UHGV virus genome: UHGV-0229204
DNA from: a virus
DNA length: 11,049 bases
Strand: one strand, 5' to 3'
Position 1 is the first letter of the stretch. The number at the start of each line of letters is the position of its first letter. The position numbers and the translations under genes are program-made. This document shows, one piece after another, positions 1 to 11,049 of the stretch. Under the pieces are notes generated by a model. That model was not told where the DNA came from. It searched no databases and was given only the letters and a program-made list of their open reading frames with translations.

Positions 1-3000
1 ACCGAGCCAGGTGTATAAACATTCGACTGTATGTACTGCCCAATCTTGGCGTTATCTATGCTGCCATCCTGAATAAACGCATCGCTGATAAATACCTGAC
101 CGTTGATTACAGCAAATGGTGAATACTGCGTGTCACCGCCACCGCTCATCAGGACGAACTGATTGGCGTTAAACCCAACGCGGGTGACTACCGGCTTACC
201 CGCTTCTGCCAGCACCGCGATCGACATCCCGGCGTTATACATCACACCGTTTATTCGAACCCCGGTTTTGAGGGTGTAAATTGCAGATGCCCCGGTCGCA
301 TCAACCACGGCGGTGAGCTTATCTTCCAGCGCGGCCGTCACATCATTGAACTGCGCCTGCACCTGCGTGGACATTTCAGCCATGGCCTTATTAACATCTG
401 CAATAGTCGTTTTGACCACCAGAATATCCGCGCGCACTTCGCCGTACTGCGCCCACTGATGCTCTACCGTTCCATGATTGGCCAGCGCATTCTGCAACGC
501 AGCTTCCAGATTGGTATCAATGTCGCTTGTAAGGCGGTCGCCGTCGGCAGACGTCAGGAAATCATCAGCAATATCGCCCAGGTAATCGTCAGCGTTTGCG
601 TTAGATACACCGCGAACCCAGCCGGTCCAGCCTGATTCATTACCCGTTCTGTCTACCAGTTGCGCACGGTACCAGAACTCCTGTCCCGCTTTTAAACCCA
701 GTTGGGTGTATTCGGCAGACGGATAAGGCACATCCGACAGCAAAAGAGGATTAGAGAAATCACTGTTCGCGGTGTACTGAATTTCCGTTTTCAGCGTGTC
801 CCCGGTATTAGCCGGGAATCCCCAGTTCAGGCGAATCCCCCAGTTGATCGGCGTTGTCGCAAAGCCGACAGGTTTCGGCGGATTTCCCACTTTACCCGTA
901 AGATTTACTTCTGATGATGTCGCCCATACTGATGAAACGTCGCTGGCGTTCACCGCCCTGACACGGACCAGATAGCGACCCGAGTAGATACCCTGCACTT
1001 CAAAGCCGAGAGAAGACGTTCGGGGCACACTAATCCAGTTGCCGCTGTCACGCCGCCATTCCGCCTCGTAAGCAACTGCACCCTGAACAGAATCCCAGGC
1101 AACGCGCATAGTGGTAATCGCAATGTTCTGGTTAACCGTAGAGTAACTGTCTACGACAATATTTCCTGGGGGAGCCTGAACCCCCGGTGGAATGACACTG
1201 ACTGGCCGCTCGTCCAGTCTTGCGCCGGTATCAACAGCGGAATAGATATCAGGGTTGTAAGTCGTCCCGGTGACCTCGAAAGTACCGTCGTTGTTGTCCC
1301 GCGTTCCCGTAACACGGAAAAGCGCTATAAACAGATCGTCAGAGTCCACACCCCAGTTACATTCAGCCTCCGGCGTTTCGCTGTAGGGTGTGGTGACAGT
1401 GACTGTGTTTCCGTTAACGGCCTGGACGGTTCTGGCCTGAGCTGTGCCTGACGGAAGATTCAAAAACAGCCTGTTACCGGCTTTCACATCAGCAGCGCGA
1501 TCGAGGGTTATGTTGCGGCCGTTAACCGCACTCACCCTGCCGCCGATAGTTCTTCCGGCCAGCTCGTTAGCAGCCACGCCGATCACCTCACCAACAGGGG
1601 GGACGTCCATGCCTGTGCTGAAGGTCACCACCTCGCCGATACCGTTGGTAAGCAGCGCCCAGCGCCCCCGCCGGTTTGCCTCTGACTGCCTGGTGCAGCC
1701 GATCGCAGTCATTTCGAGCTGACGATAATCGAAGCGCATGGCCAGATCGCTATCGTAAACAGGCTCAGGCGTATCTTTGTAGTGGTTGGCAGGGTCTGAC
1801 CAGTTCACCAGCGCGGCAGTGTTTCGGGTGGTTTCACTCGGGTCCGCAAAGGTAAATTTTCCTTCAACAACGCTGGCGTGGTTGTAGATGTGCCACACAT
1901 CCCGGGGCATATCGGCCAGGACATACATCTTATTGTCGCCCCAGTACGTCATGCCGCGAAATATACCCGCCAGATCACGAAGTACGGTCCAGGCGTCATT
2001 ACGGTCCTGGATATAAACGTTGCAACGAAAACGAGGCTCCGTCCCGCTGCCGCCCTTGCCGTCTGGTACCAGTTGATCGCAATACTGGGCGATGCGATAA
2101 AGTTCCCATTTGTCTATCTGAGTCGCATCGATTCTTTGACCCAGCCCGAAGCGCTCGTTCAGGATGATGTCGTAATATATCCAGGCTGGATTATCCGTCC
2201 ATGCCCATTTAAATACGCCCTCCCATGTACCAGAGTAAGTACGGGTTTCAGGATCATACGTGTCAGGTACACGGATGATTCGCCCTTTCGGATTGCACAC
2301 AACCTGAGGAATGCCATTGGGGAACTGCTTTGCGTCAAACTCTACATACAGCAGAGCTGTGTTAACGTAGCGAAGTTTGGCGTCAATAATTTCAGTAACG
2401 GCCACAACGCGCATGATGTCCACGACATTCACGCTCGTGGAATCCGGCGTGATTCTGCGAACCCGCAACTGCCATCCAGTCGAGGCTTTTGGAAGATTGA
2501 CGCGGTGGCTGCGCTCATAAAGCGACGTGGTTTTGTCATCAACAGCACCGTTAATCACCGTTTCATACGGCCCACCATCGACCGACAGATCGATAGCATA
2601 CTCAACGCGGGTGCCGACTTTATCGCCGTTGTTTTTCTGGAGTAAAAGAGTTGGCCATCCCAGGCGAATTCGCAGCGCAGAGAGCTGCGTGTTGGATACC
2701 GCGCGAACGTACGGCACGGCCTGTTTCAGCTCGTATGAAACCTGAATCTCGTTTTCAATGCCGGGGAAGCCCTGAATGTAGTCCTGGTCCTGAGTACCGG
2801 AACGGAACTCATATTTTACATTATTGAAGTTATAACTTCCGTTGGCGTTCTGAAGGGGCGTATATGAAGATGAGTCACCAAGAAAAATGTTTTTACCATC
2901 AAGTCCGCCAGCGAACTCACCCTCTCCAAGAGCAATCAGCACCTTTGCCCTCGCAATGGACTGAATGCTGTCCGGTGCTTCCACGGGCGTTCTGGTCTGA

Positions 3001-3044
3001 TTGCTGCCACCTTTACCGCGGCCTTTGATGATTGTCGTCGTCAT
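1..3044 (-). CDS. J: Host specificity / central tail fibre protein, lambda gpJ-like; N-terminal ~1014 codons only, the C-terminal receptor-binding part lies beyond the window start
   Basis: Uninterrupted minus-strand frame from ATG at 3044 to the window edge, absent from the ORF track presumably because it is open-ended. Translation begins MTTTIIKGRGKGGSNQTRTPVEAPDSIQSIARAKVLIALGEGEF and carries gpJ-like blocks (..YSGTWEGVFKWAWTDNPAWIYYDII.., ..ELYRIAQYCDQLVPDGKGG..TEPRFRCNVYI..) that align with lambda J (..YSGIWDGTFKPAYSNNMAWCLWDML.., ..ALYVIGQYCDQSVPDGFGGTEPRITCNAYL..) as I recall it. Position immediately downstream of I, as in lambda. Confidence 0.9.
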   Translation of the reverse strand, partial: MTTTIIKGRGKGGSNQTRTPVEAPDSIQSIARAKVLIALGEGEFAGGLDGKNIFLGDSSSYTPLQNANGSYNFNNVKYEFRSGTQDQDYIQGFPGIENEIQVSYELKQAVPYVRAVSNTQLSALRIRLGWPTLLLQKNNGDKVGTRVEYAIDLSVDGGPYETVINGAVDDKTTSLYERSHRVNLPKASTGWQLRVRRITPDSTSVNVVDIMRVVAVTEIIDAKLRYVNTALLYVEFDAKQFPNGIPQVVCNPKGRIIRVPDTYDPETRTYSGTWEGVFKWAWTDNPAWIYYDIILNERFGLGQRIDATQIDKWELYRIAQYCDQLVPDGKGGSGTEPRFRCNVYIQDRNDAWTVLRDLAGIFRGMTYWGDNKMYVLADMPRDVWHIYNHASVVEGKFTFADPSETTRNTAALVNWSDPANHYKDTPEPVYDSDLAMRFDYRQLEMTAIGCTRQSEANRRGRWALLTNGIGEVVTFSTGMDVPPVGEVIGVAANELAGRTIGGRVSAVNGRNITLDRAADVKAGNRLFLNLPSGTAQARTVQAVNGNTVTVTTPYSETPEAECNWGVDSDDLFIALFRVTGTRDNNDGTFEVTGTTYNPDIYSAVDTGARLDERPVSVIPPGVQAPPGNIVVDSYSTVNQNIAITTMRVAWDSVQGAVAYEAEWRRDSGNWISVPRTSSLGFEVQGIYSGRYLVRVRAVNASDVSSVWATSSEVNLTGKVGNPPKPVGFATTPINWGIRLNWGFPANTGDTLKTEIQYTANSDFSNPLLLSDVPYPSAEYTQLGLKAGQEFWYRAQLVDRTGNESGWTGWVRGVSNANADDYLGDIADDFLTSADGDRLTSDIDTNLEAALQNALANHGTVEHQWAQYGEVRADILVVKTTIADVNKAMAEMSTQVQAQFNDVTAALEDKLTAVVDATGASAIYTLKTGVRINGVMYNAGMSIAVLAEAGKPVVTRVGFNANQFVLMSGGGDTQYSPFAVINGQVFISDAFIQDGSIDNAKIGQYIQSNVYTPGS

Positions 3045-3053
3045 ATCGCGTCC

Positions 3054-3080
3054 ATAAAAAAAGCCACCGTCAGGTGGCTT
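3054..3080 (-). terminator. Intrinsic-terminator-like hairpin between I and J: perfect 8-bp palindromic stem AAGCCACC/GGTGGCTT, 4-nt loop, followed on the minus strand by TTTTTTAT
   Basis: Seen directly: plus strand 3061-3080 aagccacc gtca ggtggctt, preceded on the plus strand by an A-run at 3054-3060 (a U-tract on the minus strand). Lies in the 53-nt I-J intergenic gap, ending 10 nt upstream of the J ATG. Confidence 0.5.
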
Positions 3081-3097
3081 ATAGTACGTGGTTTGGT

Positions 3098-3685
3098 TTA
3101 TTGCTGATCTTCTGCATAAATCCCGGCTGAGATAATCGCACCGCCTATTTCCCTCTGTCCGTAAAGCAAAGGAACGGGGTTACCGGATGCCGTAGTATTG
3201 ACGGGTCCGCCAAACGCATAGGAAGGCTTATTATCTGGGTCCTGTCGCATCCTCAGACCAGCAACCTGAGGGGAAAGCATTTGCACTACACCACCCACAG
3301 CCATAGAACCAGCTGCGGCATATAGCGCCATTTGTGTACCTGCTGCCCATCCTATTGGGTTCCACCAGGTAAAAGCCGCAATTGCGGCGGCAGTAACAAT
3401 TTGAAAGAGGCCAGCCCTTTTACTGCCGCGTATTACAGGGATAATGCGAAGTTCATCGCCAGGTCCAAGAAGATCAAACTCTTCCTTTCCTATGTTTATT
3501 TGGTTTCGGAAGATGACAAAATCCAGCCCTTTCGCTCTGGTCTCGCGCAGGTAAGCATCAAAGCCATCAATGGTGTTAGAAAGCGCCCTGAACACTTCGC
3601 TGGCAGACGTTAGTGCGCGGCGATGCGTCCTGCCAAATCGCTGAGCCATTGAGCCGCTGAGTTTGATAACGGTTTTTCTTTCCAT
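3098..3685 (-). CDS. I: Tail assembly protein, lambda gpI-like
   Basis: 195-aa ORF with ATG at 3685 overlapping the K stop by 1 nt (ATGTAATGG). Contains ..QRFGR.. and a hydrophobic Gly/Ala-rich C-terminal half (..GLFQIVTAAAIAAF..GSMAVGGVVQMLSPQ..PVPLLYGQREIGG..) matching lambda gpI (..GGVFQIVLGAAAIAGS..VLGGVAQMLAPK..VLPVLYGEMRVGS..) from memory. Gene order K-I-J. Confidence 0.88.
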   Translation of the reverse strand: MERKTVIKLSGSMAQRFGRTHRRALTSASEVFRALSNTIDGFDAYLRETRAKGLDFVIFRNQINIGKEEFDLLGPGDELRIIPVIRGSKRAGLFQIVTAAAIAAFTWWNPIGWAAGTQMALYAAAGSMAVGGVVQMLSPQVAGLRMRQDPDNKPSYAFGGPVNTTASGNPVPLLYGQREIGGAIISAGIYAEDQQ

Positions 3686-4395
3686 TACATCAAATCCTTA
3701 TAACGCAGAATTTTGATGGTACGGTCACGGTAATAACCACCGTAGGGAATACGCTGGCTTAGCTGGCCATACATGTGATGCAGTAGCATGTTGCCATCAA
3801 GCAAAATCCCGGCATGGTTCGGGACGGTGGACTGTACCTGCATGATAACCATGTCACCGGGCTGAGCTGGACCGTCGTACTCACGGAAACCGCATTCCTG
3901 CCAGTTGTCCATATAGAGGTTTTCACCCTGCTCCCACCAGTGCCGATCTACGCTGTAGTTGGGCAGTTCAATGCCGTGTTCGATGCGGAAATAGTCCATA
4001 ATGAGAGACCAGCAGTCTGCATGCCCGAGTACAAACTGGCGCCCTGTGAGGGGACGGTCTCCGCGAGGCATGACGGTGCGAATGTCGCCCTCAGGCCACG
4101 ATGCAATAATCCAGGGCAGTTCCGTGGCATCACACATCAGCATGTCGAGTTCACTCGGCTGGGTTGTTGCCCCGTCGCCGGGGTGACTGTGGACGATCGC
4201 CACCACAGTTCCCTGCTCTTCGGCGGCCGCATAATCCTCAGGATTGAGTTCAAATTGCTCAGTCGGCGACTCAGCATTATTTTTGCAGGGGATGTATTTC
4301 TCCACCCGCCCCTTCTGAATAACCACGCCACAGCACTCCTCGGGGAAGGATGCGGCGGCATGCGCCAGAATGGCGCTAACTGTTTTGTCGCGCAT
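3685..4395 (-). CDS. K: Tail assembly protein, lambda gpK-like, with an N-terminal JAMM/MPN-like motif and a C-terminal NlpC/P60-like Cys/His region
   Basis: 236-aa ORF, ATG at 4395 preceded by GAGAGGA. Motifs seen: ..EECCGVV.., ..HSHPGDGATTQPSELD.. (JAMM-like HxH...S..D) and ..GHADCWSLI..NHAGILLDGNMLLHH.. (NlpC/P60-like). Gene order L-K-I. Confidence 0.9.
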   Translation of the reverse strand: MRDKTVSAILAHAAASFPEECCGVVIQKGRVEKYIPCKNNAESPTEQFELNPEDYAAAEEQGTVVAIVHSHPGDGATTQPSELDMLMCDATELPWIIASWPEGDIRTVMPRGDRPLTGRQFVLGHADCWSLIMDYFRIEHGIELPNYSVDRHWWEQGENLYMDNWQECGFREYDGPAQPGDMVIMQVQSTVPNHAGILLDGNMLLHHMYGQLSQRIPYGGYYRDRTIKILRYKDLM

Positions 4396-4397
4396 GA

Positions 4398-5156
4398 TTA
4401 TCCTCTCAGAAGTGAAGCGCCGGGGAACCCGCCATAATCCAGCTGTTCATTCTCTCCGAAGCGAGGTTTACAGCCCGTTGACAGCAATCCGGAGCAAACA
4501 TCCTGTGAAGGATCGTCCACCCGATTGCCGTCTTTATCGAACCAGCCGTTTTGCCCGGCGTAGGTGCAGCCGTTCCCGGTTTTGTACCAGCCACGCATGC
4601 ACCACGTGCACATTGGCTGAATTTGCCGGGTCGGAATGAGTTGCCCGCGCAGATCGGCTGGACTGGAAAGCTCAAATTCTACAGTTTCATCGTCTGATCC
4701 TGATTTACGGTCGATGTAATAAACCTGTTTGCGCTCCTCGTTGGGATTCGCAGTCTGGTTCCCATCAGGGAAGTTTCTGGCGTCCAGATAGTGTGCGAAG
4801 GTGTCATGGATGATCACCTTTGCTTTAGCCATCCCCTGAAATCTTCGGCACAGCGCGCCAATCGTGCCGCTGATGTTTGCAACGGTGAGAGACGGTCGTG
4901 AACACTGGCCGTCACTGCTGACAGATATGCCGGTCAGTTCATACGGCCACGCGCCATACTCCTGCCCCTGCCACCACACCGACTTCGGCTCAAGTTTTGA
5001 CTCGTCGCCGCCTGCGGCGATGATTTCCGCCTCGGTATGCGGGATTGTCTCGTTGTGAAAGCGAAGAATACCTGCACCGAAAGCTGAGCCGTCCACCTCG
5101 ATCAGGCGGACGCGCTTACCCGGCTCCAGTTTCTGGACATCAGATGAAATACTCAT
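4398..5156 (-). CDS. L: Minor tail (tail tip) protein, lambda gpL-like, with a C-terminal Cys cluster
   Basis: The track ORF 4398..5240 starts at an alternative codon inside M. The ATG at 5156 forms an ATGA overlap with the M stop and gives 252 aa (MSISSDVQKLEPGKRV...). The block ..WWQGQEYGAWPYELTGISVSSDGQCSRPSLTVANISG.. resembles lambda L ..TWQGRQYQPYPIQGSGFELNGKGTSTRPTLTVSNLYG... C-terminal cysteines (CTWC..GC..VCS..GCK) are present. Confidence 0.85.
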   Translation of the reverse strand: MSISSDVQKLEPGKRVRLIEVDGSAFGAGILRFHNETIPHTEAEIIAAGGDESKLEPKSVWWQGQEYGAWPYELTGISVSSDGQCSRPSLTVANISGTIGALCRRFQGMAKAKVIIHDTFAHYLDARNFPDGNQTANPNEERKQVYYIDRKSGSDDETVEFELSSPADLRGQLIPTRQIQPMCTWCMRGWYKTGNGCTYAGQNGWFDKDGNRVDDPSQDVCSGLLSTGCKPRFGENEQLDYGGFPGASLLRG

Positions 5157-5491
5157 GGGTGGTATGCCTGTGTGAATGTGCTGCTGAGGGTGTATTTTTT
5201 GTTGCCGTGTGTAGATATCTGAAAGGATTCCGCGCGCCATAAGCCTGATGGCTCAAGCGGCGACTTCCAGATAAATGATTTCCACCCGGCATGTCTGTTG
5301 AGAAAGTTTTTAATGGCCTGAATGTAAGCCTCATCGCCGGTAAAACTCACGCTCCATTGAGATGTTACCGGGTTGATACCATCCCCTGCCACCTGCGTAT
5401 AGCCATCGCCAAACTGTGCCTTTCGGGTACGAAAATTTGTATCAACCTGAGAGGCAACCTTTGGGCACCAGCTGAAGGTTTCTACTGTCAT
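5153..5491 (-). CDS. M: Minor tail protein, lambda gpM-like
   Basis: The track ORF starts at GTG 5518 inside the tape measure gene. The ATG at 5491 is preceded by AAGGGAG and lies 2 nt after the H stop, giving 112 aa (MTVETFSWCPKV...). ..QFGDGYTQ.. and ..HAGWKSFIWKSP.. resemble lambda M ..RFGDGYSQ.. and ..HGGWKSFLWTPP... Confidence 0.85.
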   Translation of the reverse strand: MTVETFSWCPKVASQVDTNFRTRKAQFGDGYTQVAGDGINPVTSQWSVSFTGDEAYIQAIKNFLNRHAGWKSFIWKSPLEPSGLWRAESFQISTHGNKKYTLSSTFTQAYHP

Positions 5492-5493
5492 GG

Positions 5494-8400
5494 TTAAACT
5501 CCCTTGATTAATCGCCACAGAGGCGAGCCCGGCATGCTGGCCTGTTCGTTAATGACGCCAGTGATGGCATCCTTAAGCTGCCTGCCTGCTGCTCCAGCAG
5601 TACCCTGACTGGCCGCCTGGGATGATCCGCCCTGAATATTGATATCGCCGAAGTTAACTGAAGGCATACCACCGGAGACCTGAGGAGTGCCAACAGCCCG
5701 AACGCCAAGCGAACCATCAGCGGCGCGCGTAAGCGGCATAATGGCTTCCGGACCAGCTTCGGCAAAAACCCCTGCACCTTTGGCAAAAGCAAACAGCTGA
5801 GGCGTCTGAAAAACGCCATTGCTGTAAGCGCTCAGGGACGGAGAGTCGTAAACATTACCCTTCGCATTAAAGGTAAAGTTCGCGCCAGCATTCTGAATAG
5901 CGGTACCGCTGCTGGCGGTAGCGGCTGACGAGGCACCAAAACTGAACAGTGAACCAATTGAGCTAACGCCATTAGCAACAGCCATATTCACCAGAACGTT
6001 CTGGATAATCTTCAGTACGCTGACGCCCCAGTCCTTCCAGCTATCAACGTTGCCATTGAGCATGTCGGTGATCGTGGTGACCGCGCCACCCATAGCCTGC
6101 TTCATGCCGTCAGCGGCCATGGAAGAATAATCAGTAGCTTCGTCCACCCAGTTCGCATAACCCTCAGACAGTCCCGTCATCCAGTCGTCACGCTGCGCAT
6201 CAGAAGCTGCGTAATATCCCTCCTGGTCGCGCAGGCGCTCATCGAGATAGCGCTTATTAAGTGCCAGTCCCTGCTGATAGAACGTCTCATCGATTTCACC
6301 AGCCTGACGCTGGCGGAGAAGATCGGTATTCTTCTGCTCGAACTCCTTACGCAGATTGAACTGCTCCTGAAGTCTTTCACGGAACCTGGTACCCTGCCCG
6401 TAACCCAGCAGTTGCCCTTCATTAGCTGCTCGGGCGCTGGCGTTACTGTCGGCGAGGTTGGCTTCGTAATTTCGCAGTTGCTCACGTAATTTAACCTGGT
6501 CAATCAGCGCAGCATTCTGCAATAACGTCTTTTTCTGGGCTTCTGTCAGAGAAGCAAGCTCGCCCTGGCTGACCTGGTATTTAACCTTCGCCAGTTCAGT
6601 ATTCTGGCCTTGCAGGGCAATCTGCTCTTTTTGCTGTTTGATCAGCTTGTCATAGGCATCAGCTGTTTTTTCCGCCTCGGATTTCCCGCCCTTATGGCGG
6701 CTTGAGTCACGAATAGCTTGCAACTGCCTGGCTGACTCAACTTCCATGCTGACATACTTCTCACGCCAACCAGCAGGGAGATTAAGGTCAGATGCATCGA
6801 ATTCCGCCTGCTTGCGGGTTTTGTCCAATCCCTTAAGACCGGACAACTCAAGCTGTCGCTGCGCCTTGTCTATAGCTTGCTGCTGCTTATTATCAAGTGC
6901 AGGAAGTACAGGCCCTGCATATTTTGGTGGGGACACTGCTGTAGACTGTCTGGAAACCTTGTTCAGACGGTCATACATCTCTGTAAGAGAACTTACGGCG
7001 CCAGCCATTTCTACTGTTTTATTTATAGCCTGATCAGTTATGTCGTTTATTAACTGTTGTGTTTGCTTTCTTTTATTGAGCATTTGCTCAAGTCGGCCTT
7101 CTTCAACCGCAAGTTCTGAAGCAAACTCTGCTGATTTCTCAACCGCATCGTTATACAGCCATGTTCCATCTGAAGCAGAATTGGCTGCTAATTTTGCGTT
7201 ATAAAGTTGATTGGATAATTCAGCAACTTTCTGCTTCTGCTGTTCAATCGCACTATTTTGAGCATCCAGTGAAATATTCGCCTGTCCAAGGTTGGCGGAT
7301 ATCTGCGTCTGAGACATTGATTTCAGATTATCTCGTACCTGCTCGATTGTGTCCGCATATTGGATTGCAGATTCCCTGGCTTGTTCTTGGCGTTGATACA
7401 TCGTGTACCACGCCCCAGCACCCAACATTAAAATTCCTGGCAAACCACCAACTAACGACAAAAGCCCCGTAGCGCCAGACTTGAATAAATTCATTACCGA
7501 TGTTGATCGGTTGAGTGCTTCTTGCGACGCTGATACTGCTTTATTTGACTGAACGAGAGTGGAATTGGCGGCTATCATTTCACGCCGTTTGGCAATAGAA
7601 TTTTGTGTAGCTGTCGCTTCTGCATTTGTGTTTTTTGCAAGTTCCAACTCGGATAGCGAGAGCTGATAAGCACGCTCGGCAGCAATCGCATCTGCTGCCG
7701 CCTTTCGTTGTGATTGGGTAGCAGATTCAGCCCTTGCAGATGCGAGCGCAATTTCGTTCTTTCTGGCATCTATTAATTGCGCCGTTTGGTTCCCAAGATC
7801 GCCAAACATCCCTCCAAGATAGCGAGCTCCACCTATTGCAGCCAAAGCTCCGGCAGCCGTAGCCACAGTGTCGATATTGTCAGAAACTGTATTCAATACA
7901 GCAACAAGAGCACTTGTCGCACCAGTAGCTTCATTAGCTCCACCTACCCATGCCATGAAAGCATTTTCGACTTTCGTCGTGGCAGCAGAAACGGTCTGCG
8001 GCATTGCCTCAAATTCACCACGCATAGTGCCAAGTTGACTTATCAGGGCCGGGACAACTTTATCTGCGGTTAGCATCCCCTGATCGGCCATTGCCTTCAG
8101 ATCTTTACGAGCTACACCCATCCCAGCGGCCAGCGCACGGATAACTCGATCACCGTTTTCGTTAACAGAGTTGAATTCCTCGCCCCGCAGAACGCCCTGA
8201 GCTAATGCCTGACTAAACTGGGTGATAACAGAACTTGCCTCTGCCGTGCTGGCGCCGGATAGCTTTAGTCCAGTAGAAATGGCCTCGGTTACATCCAGAA
8301 CTTGCTGCGAACTGTATCCGTATTCACGCATTGATGCGGCGGAACGCGCAAAAAGACTCGCATTATCAGAGAAGGCGGTTCCGGTTCGTTGGCTAATATC

Positions 8401-8760
8401 CATCAGCGCCCGCTGAGACTCCGTGAAATCATCAGACGATTGGGAAGCCTGCTTTAGCCTGGCATTAACAGAGCTCCATTCATCGGCCAGCGATATAAGA
8501 TGACCAGTCGCAAATGCTCCAGCAAATGCACCTGCCATTCCCAGCGCTGAGGCCTTCGCGGTGTTTATTTGACTAGTTACCTCAGCTAAGGCACGCTGAG
8601 TTTCACGCGAAGCTGCGGCCGCTTGGCGTCCTCCAGTCTGCATTACCCGGTAATAGTCATTCCCCATTCTTGAAGCACGAGAAATTTCAGACTGAAATGA
8701 CTGAGAGTTTGCAGATATTTTGATGATCAGTTCGCGCAACGTAGCCATATTTTCACCCAT
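5494..8760 (-). CDS. H: Tail tape measure protein, lambda gpH-like (1088 aa from ATG 8760; 1084 aa if the ATG at 8748 is used)
   Basis: Longest ORF in the window. Ala/Gln-rich, coiled-coil-like N-terminal and central regions, and a C-terminal segment (..NWVDEATDYSSMAADGMKQAMGG..VLKIIQNVLVNMAVANGVSSIGS..GTAIQNAGANFTFNAKG..) that matches the lambda gpH C-terminus (..SEWEESATDSMSQVK..VLSMMTEILLKQAMVGIVGSIGS..GTAIQAAAAKFHFATGG..) from memory. Positioned between G-T and M. A T8 run directly abuts the first ATG, so the second ATG (MATLRELI.., preceded by GGTGA) may be the real start. Confidence 0.92.
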   Translation of the reverse strand: MGENMATLRELIIKISANSQSFQSEISRASRMGNDYYRVMQTGGRQAAAASRETQRALAEVTSQINTAKASALGMAGAFAGAFATGHLISLADEWSSVNARLKQASQSSDDFTESQRALMDISQRTGTAFSDNASLFARSAASMREYGYSSQQVLDVTEAISTGLKLSGASTAEASSVITQFSQALAQGVLRGEEFNSVNENGDRVIRALAAGMGVARKDLKAMADQGMLTADKVVPALISQLGTMRGEFEAMPQTVSAATTKVENAFMAWVGGANEATGATSALVAVLNTVSDNIDTVATAAGALAAIGGARYLGGMFGDLGNQTAQLIDARKNEIALASARAESATQSQRKAAADAIAAERAYQLSLSELELAKNTNAEATATQNSIAKRREMIAANSTLVQSNKAVSASQEALNRSTSVMNLFKSGATGLLSLVGGLPGILMLGAGAWYTMYQRQEQARESAIQYADTIEQVRDNLKSMSQTQISANLGQANISLDAQNSAIEQQKQKVAELSNQLYNAKLAANSASDGTWLYNDAVEKSAEFASELAVEEGRLEQMLNKRKQTQQLINDITDQAINKTVEMAGAVSSLTEMYDRLNKVSRQSTAVSPPKYAGPVLPALDNKQQQAIDKAQRQLELSGLKGLDKTRKQAEFDASDLNLPAGWREKYVSMEVESARQLQAIRDSSRHKGGKSEAEKTADAYDKLIKQQKEQIALQGQNTELAKVKYQVSQGELASLTEAQKKTLLQNAALIDQVKLREQLRNYEANLADSNASARAANEGQLLGYGQGTRFRERLQEQFNLRKEFEQKNTDLLRQRQAGEIDETFYQQGLALNKRYLDERLRDQEGYYAASDAQRDDWMTGLSEGYANWVDEATDYSSMAADGMKQAMGGAVTTITDMLNGNVDSWKDWGVSVLKIIQNVLVNMAVANGVSSIGSLFSFGASSAATASSGTAIQNAGANFTFNAKGNVYDSPSLSAYSNGVFQTPQLFAFAKGAGVFAEAGPEAIMPLTRAADGSLGVRAVGTPQVSGGMPSVNFGDINIQGGSSQAASQGTAGAAGRQLKDAITGVINEQASMPGSPLWRLIKGV

Positions 8761-8785
8761 AAAAAAAACCCGCTTGATAGCGGGT
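8761..8785 (-). terminator. Intrinsic-terminator-like hairpin: 7-bp stem ACCCGCT/AGCGGGT, 4-nt loop, then T8 on the minus strand, immediately 3' of the moron ORF and abutting the tape measure ATG
   Basis: Seen directly: plus strand 8761-8785 aaaaaaaa cccgct tgat agcgggt; the minus strand reads ACCCGCTATCAAGCGGGTTTTTTTT followed by ATGGGTGAAAATATGGCT. Confidence 0.6.
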
Positions 8786-8791
8786 CGTGAG

Positions 8792-8980
8792 TTATAAACT
8801 GTCTTTTCTTTTGTGAGCGACTTGTATTAATAAATCTATTTGCGCATCTTGTTTTTTATTTATCTCTTTAAGGGCTTCAACTTGTTCATTTGCCCTTGTG
8901 CTAAACCGTATTAAATAAAAAATCACAATTAGATTTATCAACCAGCCGAATATTCCAAACACTACTACCAGTGGTTCCAT
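8792..8980 (-). CDS. Small single-pass membrane protein (62 aa) encoded by an AT-rich moron between T and H; candidate YebO-like / HK97 gp15-like superinfection-exclusion protein
   Basis: ATG at 8980 preceded by a strong AAGGAGG (4-nt spacer). Product MEPLVVVFGIFGWLINLIVIFYLIRFSTRANEQVEALKEINKKQDAQIDLLIQVAHKRKDSL has an N-terminal hydrophobic helix and a charged helical tail. Local GC is about 30% against about 52-55% in flanking tail genes. Followed by the hairpin + T8. The track ORF 8792..9037 begins at an upstream alternative start with no RBS. Confidence 0.65.
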   Translation of the reverse strand: MEPLVVVFGIFGWLINLIVIFYLIRFSTRANEQVEALKEINKKQDAQIDLLIQVAHKRKDSL

Positions 8981-9004
8981 AACGCCTCCTTTTCTTAAGG
9001 AAAG

Positions 9005-9033
9005 AGCGTATCGCCACATTGATGACATGTGAA
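9005..9033 (-). promoter_or_regulatory. Candidate sigma70-type promoter for the moron: TTCACA, 17-nt spacer, TACGCT on the minus strand
   Basis: Minus-strand sequence TTCACA-TGTCATCAATGTGGCGA-TACGCT lies in the 57-nt T-moron intergenic gap, about 25 nt upstream of the moron RBS. The -10 is a weak match (3/6 to TATAAT). Pattern-based only. Confidence 0.25.
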
Positions 9034-9037
9034 GCAA

Positions 9038-9708
9038 TTATTGTGTCGCAGCTGTAAGAGCAGCCTCAAGCCCTGCAAACGGGTCCTTCGGTGCTGATTG
9101 CTCATCACCACCCCAGCGCAGGATCGCATCGTCCAGCGGTACTTTTGCCCCCTGCGAGCCGTAGATGGCAGAGACGAGCTGGGCTGCCTGAATGTCACCA
9201 CGGATATCGCCAACCGGACTTTGCCTGTCGTACTCAATCCACATCAGAAGCTCGCTTGCCGTCATATTCTGCCGAAGCTCTGAGAGCGTGCGCCCCATCC
9301 GGAGCGCAAGCGACATCAGAAACTTTACGCCGGGGGTTGAGACTTTTCCCGCGCTTCGTCCGCATTGTTGATCAGGTCAAGCGCCTGTTTGAGCAGGCGT
9401 GAATGGACGGGGCCGTAGATTTCACGCACCTGCTCTTCTTCGTCTACGCTGAATACCGGCTGCTTATCGGTGTCACACAGAACGTCAATGAAGAGCACCA
9501 CGTCAGCGCAAAGATTACGGTGTGCCTTTTCCGATACCGACACATTTTCATCATCAGTACCCGCTTTCACCACCTCCTGCCAGCGCAGCCAGGCTTCACC
9601 TGACGGCTCACGCAGAACCACTTTGACGCCCTCCCACTCAGGAACGGCGACCGTCTTATGACGAAATCCCGACATCTTAGCCAGGGCGAGATTTTTAATA
9701 TTCTTCAT
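9038..9708 (-). CDS. T: Tail assembly chaperone G-T fusion, made by a programmed -1 ribosomal frameshift near the end of G; the T segment is ORF 9038..9351 in the -1 frame
   Basis: The downstream ORF (..MSLALRMGRTLSELRQNMTASELLMWIEYDRQSP..) is in the -1 frame relative to G, overlaps the G 3' end, and has no RBS before its internal ATG at 9316. The -1 frame is open from a TGA at 9379-9377 through the G stop. A GGGAAAAG slippery-like run sits at 9343-9350. This matches the conserved G/GT arrangement upstream of tape measure genes. Confidence 0.75.
9325..9708 (-). CDS. G: Tail assembly chaperone, lambda gpG-like (127 aa)
   Basis: ATG at 9708 with GAGAGG 6 nt upstream. Acidic small protein (..VDEEEQVREIYGPVHSRLLKQALDLINNADEAREKSQPPA) located between the major tail gene and the T frame, with the slippery site near its 3' end. 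Confidence 0.8.
   Translation of the reverse strand: MKNIKNLALAKMSGFRHKTVAVPEWEGVKVVLREPSGEAWLRWQEVVKAGTDDENVSVSEKAHRNLCADVVLFIDVLCDTDKQPVFSVDEEEQVREIYGPVHSRLLKQALDLINNADEAREKSQPPA
9343..9351 (-). promoter_or_regulatory. Putative -1 programmed frameshift slippery site, minus strand C GGG AAA AG (zero-frame codons CGG GAA AAG)
   Basis: Seen directly at the G 3' end. Resembles the lambda G GGA AAG site but is offset by one nucleotide and has an extra A. An A-site tRNA-Lys slip from AAG to AAA is possible. Confidence 0.5.
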
Positions 9709-9716
9709 GCGACCTC

Positions 9717-10160
9717 TCAGGAGCCAGACTCGATGTTTTCAGGCTTACCTTTCAGGCGCAGGGAGAACGTTGCCGCAACTACGCCGTTGGTACCGGAAGA
9801 CCAGGTGTGCTGGCGGATTTCAGCCAGGAACTTAAAGCCCTTGCCGGACGGGAAGATAACCTGGAAAGCGTAGGTCGTATCGTTGTCATACGCTTCACGC
9901 AAGGCGTCCTGCGCCGGGTTTTTGTAGAAGTTGCCGGACAGAGAGATTTCTGACGGAGAAGGCAGGCCGTTGATGTTCTCCTGCTCGGTAGAGCAAAGCG
10001 TGGTTACGTCGATATCCTGCTTCTGGCCACCAGTGAACTGAATTTCTTTGATGGTGCAACTCAGATCGAGGAAGGTTGCGGTATCCATCGTTTCTTTGGT
10101 GGCTGGCGCAGAGGAAATAAGGATCTTCGTCAGCTGCGATTTTTCATAAAGTGCAGACAT
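9717..10160 (-). CDS. Major tail tube protein (147 aa), homologous to the lambda gpV N-terminal tube domain, with no C-terminal Ig-like domain
   Basis: ATG at 10160 with AGGAGA 7 nt upstream. ..DNDTTYAFQVIFPSGKGFKFLAEI.. resembles lambda V ..[23 protein letters not shown]... Sits directly upstream of G, as V does in lambda. The stop TGA overlaps the G RBS. Confidence 0.8.
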   Translation of the reverse strand: MSALYEKSQLTKILISSAPATKETMDTATFLDLSCTIKEIQFTGGQKQDIDVTTLCSTEQENINGLPSPSEISLSGNFYKNPAQDALREAYDNDTTYAFQVIFPSGKGFKFLAEIRQHTWSSGTNGVVAATFSLRLKGKPENIESGS

Positions 10161-10172
10161 AGCTGTCTCCTG

Positions 10173-10201
10173 GTAAAAGAAAACCCGCCATTAAGCGGGT
10201 T
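10173..10201 (-). terminator. Intrinsic-terminator-like hairpin upstream of the major tail gene: 7-bp stem AACCCGC/GCGGGTT, 6-nt loop, then TTTTCTTTT on the minus strand
   Basis: Seen directly: plus strand 10182-10201 aacccgc cattaa gcgggtt. The minus strand continues TTTCTTTTACCAGGAGACAGCTATG. Same ACCCGC/GCGGGT stem core as the hairpin at 8761-8785. Confidence 0.5.
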
Positions 10202-10219
10202 CGTTGGGTGAATGATTTA

Positions 10220-10567
10220 TCAAGGTGTAACTTTAAAATCCAGGGTGGCACGGTATAGCCGATAATATGGCTCGTATCCGGGGATTTTTACCACCTCTGT
10301 AGGGTTTAACGACTTAAGCGAAGCAAGCGCCAAATCTCTCAGAGATCGTGATTCAGTGATCGTTGTGGCATACACATCGACCTGAACGGAAACCCTGCTC
10401 TCTGCCTGGCCACACATCACGTCAGCGGAAACATCATCGACGATGGAAAAGATAATCCAGGGTGGAGTGACCGACGGTTTCCCGTCACTACCTAATGGCG
10501 CAACATAGGGATATACCCGTCCTTCTGCCAGGGGAGAAAGCAAGGCGTAGATATTATCTTCATTCAC
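10220..10567 (-). CDS. Putative tail terminator / tail completion protein, assigned by its gpU-like position; 115 aa
   Basis: ORF with GTG start at 10567 forming a GTGA overlap with the upstream stop, so translationally coupled. Lies between the HK97 gp10-like gene and the major tail gene, where lambda has U. I cannot confirm sequence similarity to lambda U by eye; the function is inferred from synteny. Confidence 0.6.
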   Translation of the reverse strand: MNEDNIYALLSPLAEGRVYPYVAPLGSDGKPSVTPPWIIFSIVDDVSADVMCGQAESRVSVQVDVYATTITESRSLRDLALASLKSLNPTEVVKIPGYEPYYRLYRATLDFKVTP

Positions 10568-11013
10568 TTGCTCAATACCTCATCAATAGCCTGACTCATC
10601 CTGGCAATGGCGACGCTGGCGGCCTCTTCCTCGCGCGTATCGTAAGCGGGTCGCACAAACGGATGTGCAGGCATGTTCGCGGTGCCCATTTCTACGAATC
10701 GCCAGTAAAAGGCGTTTCTCGGGTTATTCGCCTTCATCGTGTTATCGCTGTTGCCGGTGCGCGGGTTAACGCCACGAATATGGACGCCGGAAGAAATTTC
10801 CCCGCGGCGACGGCTTTTTTGGGTCACCACCACCACGTTTTTTTTCAGTTTCCCGGTGCGCACCGGTGCACGGGCGATCACTTCTTCCTTAAGCACTTCG
10901 GCGCCGGCGCGCGTGGCATCACGCAGAACCTTGTTGTTTTCAGCGCGGCTAAGCGCCTCCAGGTCTTTTGCTATGTCATTTAACCCAGAAAAATCGAGGC
11001 TCGTCTCAATCAT
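10564..11013 (-). CDS. HK97 gp10-family head-tail joining / tail-component protein (149 aa from ATG 11013)
   Basis: The track ORF starts at TTG 11034. The ATG at 11013 is preceded by GGGGA and forms an ATGA overlap with the upstream gene stop. Product MIETSLDFSGLNDIAKDLEALSRAEN...TGKLKKNVVV...FYWRFVEMGTANMPAHPFVRPAYD.. fits the HK97 gp10-like family pattern as I recall it. Confidence 0.75.
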   Translation of the reverse strand: MIETSLDFSGLNDIAKDLEALSRAENNKVLRDATRAGAEVLKEEVIARAPVRTGKLKKNVVVVTQKSRRRGEISSGVHIRGVNPRTGNSDNTMKANNPRNAFYWRFVEMGTANMPAHPFVRPAYDTREEEAASVAIARMSQAIDEVLSK

Positions 11014-11049
11014 TTTTCGGTCCCCTGTTTGCAAAGAATTTCAAGCTGG
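11010..11049 (-). CDS. 3' end of an upstream minus-strand gene, probably a head-tail connector or head completion protein; only 12 codons visible
   Basis: Open frame from the window end reading ..QLEILCKQGTEK then TGA at 11012-11010, which overlaps the next ATG as ATGA. Far too short to assign a function; the call rests on the operon context. Confidence 0.4.
   Translation of the reverse strand, partial: QLEILCKQGTEK

What the first reader, a model, noticed from the sequence alone, without database searches (positions are those of the whole stretch)
6950..7950. Low-GC mosaic segment inside the tape measure gene
Within the single 1088-codon tape measure ORF, the central stretch (roughly TMP residues 270-600) falls to about 32-45% GC in 60-nt lines (for example 7021-7080, 7201-7260). 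The N-terminal and C-terminal thirds run at about 50-57%. The frame stays open and the encoded segment is coiled-coil-like and Gln/Ala/Asn/Lys-rich. This looks like a recombinational graft of the length-determining region from a lower-GC donor, which would change tail length without touching the conserved tip-interaction C-terminus. It also means the tape measure region targeted by HK97 gp15-type exclusion could be of foreign origin.
Basis: seen in the sequence. Interest (0 to 1): 0.5.

Follow-up and report, generated by a model that had tools for sequence, protein, structure and literature searches.

The report
Low-GC stretch in HK97-type tape measure
The GC dip in the middle of this phage tail tape measure gene is real but ordinary: the stretch is 98% identical to phage HK97's own gene, its low GC comes partly from the amino acids it encodes in all relatives, and only its downstream edge is a true recombination junction.

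Summary
The 1088-codon ORF (5494-8760, minus strand) is an HK97-type tape measure gene, 91% identical to HK97 gene H over 94% of its length. A GC dip exists but is narrower than reported: about 6886-7500, GC about 0.43 against a window mean of 0.52. It is the overlap of two separate signals. First, second-codon-position GC is low from codon ~457 to ~850. All 13 homologues compared show this, including those only 21-37% identical in protein there, so it reflects amino-acid composition. Second, third-position GC is low (0.40) over the whole 5' 57% of the gene. It steps up to 0.56 after codon 624, at a recombination junction. The low-GC block itself (6884-7478) is 98% identical to HK97, so it is not a graft peculiar to this phage, and tail length is unchanged (1084 vs 1089 aa). 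No lower-GC donor lineage was found. The segment between an invariant hydrophobic island (residues 427-469) and a Pro-rich linker (603-623) is swapped repeatedly among relatives. This is known biology of modest interest.

The parts
5494..8760 (-). Tail length tape measure gene (HK97 gp16/H type). The ORF is 1088 codons; the probable start is codon 5, at window 8748.
   Evidence: ORF; 91% nt identity to HK97 H over nt 1-3075 in one piece. Pfam TMP_3, Phage_HK97_TLTM and Tape_meas_lam_C, all above their cut-offs; same gene order as HK97 and the EC2001 prophage.
6886..7500 (-). The GC dip as measured: about 0.43 on average, 300-nt minimum 0.40.
6884..7478 (-). Block nearly identical to HK97 (12 mismatches in 595 nt), codons 428-626. 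It coincides with the dip.
   Evidence: HMM segmentation, 98.3%. (mismatch map); third-position identity 95%.
6733..7524 (-). Pfam PF06120 'Phage_HK97_TLTM' domain (ORF residues ~413-676), which contains the dip.
   Evidence: E = 2.3e-34, 119 bits against a cut-off of 24.
7354..7482 (-). Invariant Gly-rich hydrophobic island (residues 427-469, ...GLLSLVGGLPGILMLGAGAWYTMYQ.QEQAR...). It is the upstream recombination hot spot and a probable membrane-inserting segment.
   Evidence: invariant columns K15-A57 of the query; hydropathy peak 1.69 at residues 432-450; junctions at codons 428, 431, 453 and 462 in four independent pairs.
6955..7311 (-). Two predicted long helices (residues 484-528 and 534-602). 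This is the lowest-GC core.
   Evidence: AlphaFold2, pLDDT up to 94 over residues ~502-562; mean over the whole model only 61. GC 0.39-0.41.
6892..6954 (-). Non-helical Pro-rich linker (residues 603-623), just upstream of the downstream junction.
   Evidence: no secondary structure, pLDDT below 50. (sequence ...SRQSTAVSPPKYAGPVLPALDNK...).
6883..6898 (-). Downstream junction. The GC3 change-point (0.40 to 0.565) and the breakpoint of identity to HK97 fall together here.
   Evidence: after codon 624, p = 0.002.; junctions at codons 624-650 in three further pairs (HK97/SW-37, HK542/mEp390, window/SW-37).
7479..7704 (-). Divergent patch (codons 353-428), shared only with the EC2001 prophage. Against HK97 it is 68% identical in nt, 76% in aa and 33% at third positions. 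Its GC is 0.461 against 0.518 in HK97, which widens the dip upstream.
6637..6813 (-). Block most like Salmonella phage SW-37 (96.6%), codons 650-708.
5497..6636 (-). 3' third of the gene (codons 709-1088), 96-99% like ES5, LAU1 and AsXd-1. Residues 1018-1088 are unlike HK97 (35% aa).
2491..5491 (-). Tail-tip genes M, L, K, I and the start of J. They are inherited with the tape measure's 3' end: 92-93% identical to LAU1, ES5 and AsXd-1; HK97 is only 64% identical over M-L-K.
8792..8980 (-). gp15 (YebO-family) moron homologue, 62 aa, 59/62 identical to HK97 gp15, GC 0.317. It abuts the AT-rich 5' part of the tape measure gene.
   Evidence: (annotation in HK97 and EC2001); terminator-like hairpin at 8786-8767.

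Best explanation
The low-GC stretch is the central domain (Pfam PF06120) of an HK97-type tape measure protein. It is carried here as essentially the same allele as in phage HK97.

The dip arises where two independent compositional zones overlap.
- Zone 1 is low second-codon-position GC from about codon 457 to 850. The protein there is poor in Ala and Gly and rich in Gln, Asn, Lys, Glu and Asp, and the model predicts long helices. This is a family-wide property of the protein.
- Zone 2 is AT-rich synonymous codon usage (GC3 about 0.40, against 0.53-0.66 in most neighbouring late genes) over the whole 5' 57% of the gene. It ends abruptly after codon 624.

That end point is a homologous-recombination junction. 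Downstream of it the gene is built from SW-37-like and then LAU1/AsXd-1-like sequence, which continues into the tail-tip genes.

The gene family evolves by exchanging blocks between deeply diverged alleles. Crossovers concentrate at conserved or unstructured spots: the invariant hydrophobic island at residues 427-469 and the Pro-rich linker at residues 603-650.

Shown here: the composition, the decomposition into codon positions, the breakpoints and their recurrence. Inferred: that conserved islands act as crossover substrates, and that the hydrophobic island plus helices take part in passage across the inner membrane.
For: - Identity. HK97 H matches nt 1-3075 at 91% in one piece. The block 6884-7478 is 98.3% identical to HK97, flanked by blocks at 67% and 83%. 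Fisher p = 2e-33 and 3e-18 for the change in difference density.
- Decomposition. The dip is 0.519 to 0.430. Amino-acid composition explains 44% of it. The codon-choice residual is negative across the whole N-terminal part (-0.012 to -0.068) and about 0 after codon 626.
- Change-points. GC3 has one significant change-point, after codon 624 (0.40 to 0.565, p = 0.002). Centre against N-terminal part: GC3 p = 0.12, GC2 p = 0.002.
- Family-wide GC2. The centre has GC2 0.35-0.42 in all 13 homologues, against 0.47-0.53 in their N-terminal parts. The centre is below the gene mean in 13 of 13. GC2 profiles correlate with r = 0.63-0.98, while GC3 profiles correlate only among DNA-level relatives.
- HK97 has the same dip (0.442) and the same low GC3 over codons 5-701 (0.418).
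- Alternative parents. SW-37 is 96.6% identical over codons 650-708. ES5 and LAU1 are 96-98% identical over codons 709-1044, continuing through M, L, K, I and J.
- Recurrent junctions in other pairs at codons 428-463 and 624-650.
- Domain and structure. PF06120 covers residues 413-676. The invariant island is shown. The long helices and the linker are shown.
Against: - The synonymous AT-richness of the 5' 57% is itself unexplained. It differs from the neighbouring genes, so an old foreign origin of that larger region is not excluded.
- The central alleles differ in GC3 (0.29-0.67). The HK97-type allele is among the AT-richest, so amino-acid composition alone explains less than half of the dip.
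- The structure model is of moderate quality (mean pLDDT 61), and heptad periodicity is weak.
- Breakpoints were called with a simple two-state HMM on 13 sequences, not with a formal recombination package.
Confidence: 0.8

Rival explanations
1. One reading: the central segment was recently grafted into this phage's tape measure gene from a lower-GC donor phage. This would change tail length and leave the termini native.
For: The dip is the second-lowest GC region of the window. Relatives carry very different central alleles. The window-specific patch at codons 353-428 has lower GC than HK97's version (0.461 vs 0.518).
Against: - The block is 98% identical to HK97 and to six other HK97-clade phages.
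- GC3 does not differ from the adjacent N-terminal part.
- GC2 is low in every allele.
- The block has no indels against HK97, and the proteins are 1084 vs 1089 aa.
- The search of one genome per bacterial species found only a Pectobacterium relative, 38% identical in protein. The large protein search found only enterobacterial relatives.
Confidence: 0.07
2. An old foreign origin of a larger unit. On this model the whole AT3-rich tract, perhaps including the adjacent gp15 moron (about 6889-9030), descends from a gene pool with lower GC than the rest of the late operon. The codon-624 junction would mark where native-like sequence resumes.
For: - GC3 is 0.40 over codons 5-624 and about 0.29 in gp15. 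It is 0.53-0.66 in most neighbouring genes and 0.56 in codons 625-1088.
- Related tape measure genes with normal GC3 (0.60) over the N-terminal part exist: HK542, ENT39118, mEp390, BP-4795.
- The step coincides with a junction.
Against: - Alleles that are saturated at synonymous sites still keep the same low GC3. Third-position identity to HK97 is 33-42% in codons 141-199 and 353-428, yet GC3 is 0.49 vs 0.53 and 0.38 vs 0.41. LAU1, SW-37, Kp1LV and 606R7 have 0.44-0.48.
- This points to a long-standing equilibrium or a constraint, not a fading import signal.
- No low-GC donor was identified.
- gp15 is much more AT-rich than the tape measure gene and has its own terminator, so the two are probably separate events.
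Confidence: 0.2
3. Selection on the nucleic acid. AT-rich synonymous sites in the 5' part and centre would be kept for a DNA- or RNA-level function, such as low mRNA structure, slow translation of a long helical protein that needs its chaperones, or H-NS silencing in the prophage.
For: Low GC3 persists across synonymously saturated alleles.
Against: - Other sub-families (HK542, BP-4795) have GC3 0.60 in the same regions and presumably work.
- Promoter- and terminator-like sites in the scanned region (5400-9400) are near chance level.
- There are no tandem repeats.
- Nothing was tested directly.
Confidence: 0.08
4. The dip marks an embedded or antisense gene, or a regulatory element, inside the tape measure gene.
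For: Plus-strand ORFs of 95-103 aa lie at 6746-7033 and 7161-7472.
Against: These ORFs have no Pfam match at E up to 0.1. Antisense ORFs are expected in AT-rich coding DNA. Promoter-like sites number 2, against 3.6 expected. The tape measure frame is under clear protein-level constraint.
Confidence: 0.02

Closest known systems
Phage HK97 tail length tape measure protein gp16 (gene H), NP_037710
   Same: Same position in the tail operon, directly after the gp15 moron. 91% nt identity over 94% of the gene; 98.3% in the low-GC block. Same three Pfam domains, same GC dip, same low GC3 in the 5' part.
   Different: Four divergent patches: codons 140-199, 352-428, 626-760 and 873-1017. The C-terminal ~70 residues are unrelated (35% aa). 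In HK97 the low-GC3 zone runs to codon ~701, not 624.
Prophage of E. coli EC2001 (NZ_CP133811, tape measure WP_406682329)
   Same: Closest overall: 97% over the whole gene, 99.4% over codons 5-863, and 95% over window 610-11046. It shares the window-specific patch at codons 353-428 and the short tail-tube gene.
   Different: Divergent patches at codons 863-950 and 1001-1032 (82-83%).
Tape measure and tail-tip module of Enterobacter phage LAU1, Aeromonas phage AsXd-1 and the E. coli ES5 prophage
   Same: The 3' third of the gene (codons 709-1088) and M, L, K, I, J are 92-99% identical.
   Different: The N-terminal part and centre are only about 53% identical in DNA. These proteins are 1154 aa. 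Their central allele is 34% identical in protein, with GC 0.48.
Pervasive mosaicism of lambdoid phages, including junctions inside genes (Juhala et al. 2000, as cited in PMC3594210); phage lambda gpH
   Same: Abrupt switches between near-identity and near-saturated divergence. Modules are exchanged by recombination at short conserved stretches. The C-terminal Tape_meas_lam_C domain is shared with lambda gpH (PDB 8iyk_H matches residues 787-964).
   Different: Lambda gpH lacks the PF06120 central domain at detectable sequence level here. I could not read Juhala et al., so I do not know which junctions it reports in gene H.

Membership tests
HK97-type tail length tape measure protein | [quoted passage not shown] | tested here: met
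   the window is collinear with HK97 and the EC2001 prophage.
HK97-type tail length tape measure protein | Pfam TMP_3, Phage_HK97_TLTM (PF06120) and Tape_meas_lam_C, each above its gathering score | tested here: met
   195.6, 119.4 and 45.4 bits against cut-offs of 41, 24 and 23.
HK97-type tail length tape measure protein | Close sequence relationship to HK97 gp16 | tested here: met
   91.1% nt identity over 94% of the gene; 98.2% aa identity in the centre.
HK97-type tail length tape measure protein | Sets tail length and takes part in PtsG/FkpA-dependent genome injection | not testable with these tools
   Known for HK97 from Cumby et al. 2015, as summarised in PMC5099701 and bioRxiv 10.1101/2025.12.01.691526. 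Inferred here by homology only.
Horizontally acquired low-GC insert (moron-like graft) | A break in synonymous-site composition at both edges | tested here: not met
   a GC3 step only at the downstream edge (after codon 624). Centre against upstream part, p = 0.12-0.3.
Horizontally acquired low-GC insert (moron-like graft) | Absent from the nearest relatives | tested here: not met
   present at 98% in HK97, HK75, HK633, HK106, mEpX1, mEp234, EC2001, SZQ1, KCJ3K291 and MSB1_9D.
Horizontally acquired low-GC insert (moron-like graft) | Closer relatives in a lower-GC lineage | tested here: not met
   the phage collection shows nothing between 37% and 95% aa identity; only Pectobacterium fontis, at 38%; only Salmonella, Enterobacter, Citrobacter and E. 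coli. The searches are limited: one genome per species, and only 13 partial proteins returned.
Horizontally acquired low-GC insert (moron-like graft) | Its own promoter and terminator | tested here: not met
   2 promoter-like sites against 3.6 expected. No convincing same-strand terminator inside the gene.
Intragenic mosaic made by homologous recombination between diverged alleles | Abrupt switches between near-identity and deep divergence | tested here: met
   third-position identity 93-95% against 33-43%. Fisher p = 2e-33 and 3e-18.
Intragenic mosaic made by homologous recombination between diverged alleles | Adjacent blocks have different closest relatives | tested here: met
   HK97 for codons 428-626, SW-37 for 650-708, HK446/AsXd-1/ES5 for 709-760, ES5/LAU1 for 874-1088.
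Intragenic mosaic made by homologous recombination between diverged alleles | Junctions recur at conserved sequence islands | tested here: met
   junctions at codons 428-463 in four pairs, inside the invariant island, and at codons 624-650 in four pairs.
Intragenic mosaic made by homologous recombination between diverged alleles | Breakpoints confirmed by a formal method (RDP, GARD, PHI) | not tested
   Only my own two-state HMM and Fisher tests were run.

The most novel reading that the evidence does not exclude
The segment from the invariant hydrophobic island to the Pro-rich linker (residues ~430-625: a membrane-inserting island plus a long helical hairpin) may be a self-contained specificity cassette of HK97-like tape measure proteins. 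On this reading it decides which inner-membrane protein the phage uses (PtsG for HK97) and whether gp15-type exclusion blocks it. The exchange of at least four deeply diverged alleles at two recombination hot spots would then be an escape or host-switch mechanism. The alleles' different GC3 values (0.29-0.67) would record residence in different host backgrounds.
Probability: 0.2. Interest if true: 0.5.

Novelty: already known. Interest (0 to 1): 0.17.

Why it matters
The result mostly serves as a caution. A GC dip inside a long structural gene can come from amino-acid composition overlapping with a regional codon-usage zone, so it is not by itself evidence of a graft.

The useful by-product is a map of this gene family's block structure. 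There are two recurrent crossover zones, at residues 427-469 and 603-650, which bracket an exchangeable central domain. The C-terminal ~70 residues are inherited together with the M-L-K-I-J tail-tip genes.

Tape measure segments are known to determine inner-membrane receptor use and sensitivity to defences such as gp15 and SNIPE (PMC3594210, PMC13190303). The map therefore points to sensible chimeras for locating those determinants in HK97-like phages.

Tried and rejected
- Genome scan. A scan of one genome per bacterial species with the central segment found a single distant locus, Pectobacterium fontis at 38% aa. This gave no donor and little diversity.
- Wide protein search. The search with the central domain returned only 13 proteins, all partial and all enterobacterial. 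It was enough for a thin alignment but not for a survey.
- Literature. The primary HK97 papers (Cumby 2012, PMC3430355; Cumby 2015, PMID 25532427) are not held. I could not learn which tape measure residues govern gp15 or PtsG dependence. [quoted passage not shown]
- Fold search. The central-domain model matched nothing significant in the PDB. The best E-value was 0.056, to generic long helical hairpins (SMC arms, alpha-pore-forming toxins). I draw no functional conclusion from it.
- Coiled coil. The heptad-periodicity test was weak in the centre, so I say 'long helices', not 'coiled coil'.
- Tandem repeats: none in the gene.
- Internal promoters or terminators: at chance level.
- Antisense ORFs at 6746-7033, 7161-7472 and 7777-8073: no Pfam match. 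Rejected as spurious.
- Expression level as the cause of low GC3: rejected. J, L and K are also low-copy virion proteins and have GC3 0.58-0.63.
- GC2 change-points: binary segmentation found none at p < 0.01. A single-step model suits a dip poorly, so I relied on direct Fisher tests and the comparison across homologues.
Full report
**1. The observation**

The window carries one long minus-strand ORF, 5494-8760, of 1088 codons. Relatives are annotated from codon 5 (MATLREL..., window 8748), giving 1084 aa.

A GC dip is present. 300-nt windows fall to 0.40-0.45 between about 6886 and 7500, against a window mean of 0.521 (sd 0.044). The minimum has z = -2.8. Only 1.9% of windows are as low, and those all lie over the gp15 moron.

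The reported interval is too wide on the upstream side. The stretch 7500-7950 has GC 0.46-0.52. In the complete HK97 genome the homologous stretch is unremarkable (z = -1.6; 7% of windows are as low). So the dip is real, about 600 nt long, unusual for a late operon, and not unusual for the genome type.

**2. What the gene is**

It is an HK97-type tail length tape measure gene.
- HK97 gene H matches nt 1-3075 at 91% in a single piece. Thirteen further records of the HK97 clade do the same.
- An E. coli prophage (strain EC2001) matches the whole gene at 97% and the window at 95% over 610-11046.
- Pfam finds three domains: TMP_3 (residues 83-272), Phage_HK97_TLTM PF06120 (409-672) and Tape_meas_lam_C (855-926), in 1084-residue numbering.

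The dip therefore lies inside a curated domain family named after this very region of HK97.

**3. Which codon positions carry the dip**

Sliding GC1/GC2/GC3 profiles and a model of the GC expected from the amino-acid sequence show two components.
- Amino-acid composition explains 44% of the drop from 0.519 to 0.430.
- The rest is synonymous codon choice. That residual is negative across the entire N-terminal part (-0.036, -0.012, -0.052, -0.064, then -0.068 in the centre) and close to zero after codon 626.
- Compared with the adjacent codons 343-456, the extra drop in the centre (0.047) is almost all amino-acid composition (0.042).

Permutation-tested segmentation finds one GC3 change-point in the gene, after codon 624 (window ~6888; 0.40 to 0.565; p = 0.002). 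Centre GC3 does not differ from the N-terminal part (0.349 vs 0.420, p = 0.12), but it differs from the C-terminal part (p = 2e-6). Centre GC2 is lower than in the N-terminal part (0.373 vs 0.511, p = 0.002) and not different from the C-terminal part (p = 0.17).

The dip is thus the overlap of a low-GC3 zone (codons 5-624) with a low-GC2 zone (codons ~457-850). Most neighbouring late genes have GC3 0.53-0.66; gene I and the tail-terminator-like gene are lower, at 0.45-0.47.

**4. The same profile in homologues**

- HK97 has the same central GC (0.442 vs 0.432) and low GC3 over codons 5-701.
- I compared 13 tape measure genes: the window's gene, the HK97-like alleles, and Cronobacter ENT39118, HK542, mEp390, a Klebsiella phage, BP-4795, 606R7 and a Pectobacterium fontis prophage. 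Outside HK97 (98%), the centres are only 21-37% identical to the window's in protein.
- In all 13 the centre has GC2 0.35-0.42, against 0.47-0.53 in the N-terminal part. Central GC is below the gene mean in 13 of 13.
- GC2 profiles along the gene correlate with the window's at r = 0.63-0.98 in every case. GC3 profiles correlate only among DNA-level relatives (0.57-0.79) and are near zero for HK542, the Klebsiella phage, BP-4795 and 606R7.

So the amino-acid component is ancestral, and the synonymous component is lineage-specific.

**5. Mosaic structure**

A codon alignment and a two-state HMM give sharp blocks. Against HK97 the window's gene reads as follows:

| Codons | nt identity to HK97 | Note |
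|---|---|---|
| 5-140 | 97.8% | |
| 140-199 | 77% | |
| 200-352 | 97.4% | |
| 352-428 | 67% | Patch shared only with EC2001 |
| 428-626 | 98.3% | Window 6884-7478, the dip |
| 626-760 | 83% | |
| 761-873 | 96.4% | |
| 873-1088 | 73% | |

Third-position identity is 93-95% in the near-identical blocks and 33-43% in the divergent ones, where protein identity stays at 76-92%. These are therefore exchanges between deeply diverged but functional alleles. The change in difference density at both edges of the central block is highly significant (p = 2e-33 and 3e-18).

Other blocks have other closest relatives. SW-37 is 96.6% identical over codons 650-708. HK446, AsXd-1 and ES5 are 98-99% identical over 709-760. 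ES5 and LAU1 are 97-99% identical over 874-1017, and LAU1 is 100% over 1064-1088.

The low-GC block is the part of the centre that this phage shares with HK97. It is not an import peculiar to this phage.

**6.

HK446/HK544, LAU1/AsXd-1/ES5 and SW-37 carry central alleles only 30-50% identical in DNA and 33-37% in protein. Junctions recur in independent pairs.

| Zone | Pair | Junction codon |
|---|---|---|
| Upstream | window / HK97 | 428 |
| Upstream | HK97 / HK446 | 431 |
| Upstream | HK446 / LAU1 | 453 |
| Upstream | HK542 / mEp390 | 462 |
| Downstream | window / HK97 | 626 |
| Downstream | HK97 / SW-37 | 624 |
| Downstream | HK542 / mEp390 | 644 |
| Downstream | window / SW-37 | 649 |

The upstream zone is an invariant, Gly-rich hydrophobic island (residues 427-469). 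The downstream zone begins just after a predicted non-helical, Pro-rich linker (residues 603-623). Between the two zones, AlphaFold2 predicts two long helices (484-528 and 534-602; pLDDT up to 94, mean for the model 61).

I infer that the invariant island supplies the homology for crossovers. I also infer that the domain between the two zones is a functional unit that tolerates replacement.

**7. Claims that fail**

- No lower-GC donor was found. In the phage collection the centre is either 95-99% identical in protein (HK97 clade only) or at most 37%. The species-representative genomes gave only Pectobacterium fontis at 38%. The large protein search gave only Salmonella, Enterobacter, Citrobacter and E. 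coli proteins.
- Tail length is not altered relative to HK97. There are no indels in the block, and the proteins are 1084 vs 1089 aa.
- The C-terminus is not the conserved, untouched part. Residues 1018-1088 are 35% identical to HK97. From about window 6693 down through M, L, K, I and J the DNA is 92-93% LAU1/AsXd-1/ES5-like, while HK97 is 64% identical over M-L-K. The end of the tape measure that contacts the tail tip is inherited together with the tip genes.
- The gp15 link is not established. [quoted passage not shown] That is not a mapping to the centre.

**8. What remains open**

Why the 5' 57% of HK97-type tape measure genes keeps GC3 near 0.4 is not explained. It persists in alleles that are saturated at synonymous sites. 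That argues against a recent import and for either an old separate gene pool or a constraint on the sequence.

Central alleles differ in GC3 from 0.29 to 0.67. HK542 and mEp390 share their N-terminal parts but differ in central GC (0.561 vs 0.474). Cassettes with different compositional histories therefore do circulate.

Tape measure segments are known to set inner-membrane receptor use and defence sensitivity in lambda and other siphophages (PMC13190303). A specificity role for this cassette is thus plausible, but it was not tested.

**9. Other explanations checked**

There are no tandem repeats in the gene. Promoter- and terminator-like sites are at chance level. The antisense ORFs have no family match. 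The fold search found nothing significant.

**10. Verdict**

The dip is a real but ordinary feature of a known gene. It is wrong in its specifics: there is no graft peculiar to this phage, no low-GC donor, no change in tail length, and the C-terminus is not untouched. Interest is low.

Noticed in passing
window 8792-8980 (-), with a hairpin at 8786-8767: A homologue of the HK97 gp15 superinfection-exclusion moron (YebO family): 62 aa, 59/62 identical to HK97 gp15. Its GC of 0.317 makes it the lowest-GC spot of the window. A terminator-like hairpin followed by a T-run sits just before the tape measure start.
   Followed up: partly
window 9717-10160 (-); junction at about 9687-9740: The tail tube gene encodes 147 aa, against 234 aa for HK97 gp12. 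About 343 nt of HK97 (the tube's C-terminal ~95 codons plus a terminator) are replaced by about 53 nt here. The EC2001 and MSB1_9D prophages have the same short form, which PGAP flags as 'incomplete, missing C-terminus'. It may be a natural variant without the C-terminal domain, not a pseudogene.
   Followed up: partly
window 2491-6693 (-): The window is a hybrid of two tail modules. The head-tail joining genes through tape measure codon ~1025 are HK97-like (92%). From tape measure codon ~690 through M, L, K, I and J the DNA is LAU1/AsXd-1/ES5-like (92-93%), and HK97 is 64% identical over M-L-K. The two similarities overlap across 5686-6693, a likely crossover zone.
   Followed up: yes
window 7479-7704 (-): A patch at codons 353-428 is shared only with the EC2001 prophage. 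Against HK97 it is 68% identical in nt, 76% in aa and 33% at third positions. No closer source appeared in the phage or E. coli collections.
   Followed up: partly
L014 1708-4926 (Pectobacterium fontis M022 contig): A prophage tape measure protein of 1072 aa begins with the same 29 residues as the HK97 type (MATLRELIIKISANSQSFQSEISRASRMG). It has the AT-richest central domain seen (GC 0.398, GC3 0.29).
   Followed up: partly
L005 507-674, L006 326-676, L011 181-600, compared with window 8792-8980: The slot between the tail chaperone genes and the tape measure gene holds different small genes in different relatives: gp15/YebO in the HK97 type, other hypothetical genes in LAU1, AsXd-1 and ES5 (reverse strand in ES5), and none in HK542 or mEp390. 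It looks like a recurrent moron insertion site.
   Followed up: no
window 9038-9316 and 9325-9708 (-): These are the tail assembly chaperone gene (G-like, 127 aa) and a downstream ORF (T-like, DUF4035). Their layout matches the HK97 -1 frameshift pair. I did not look for the slippery site.
   Followed up: no
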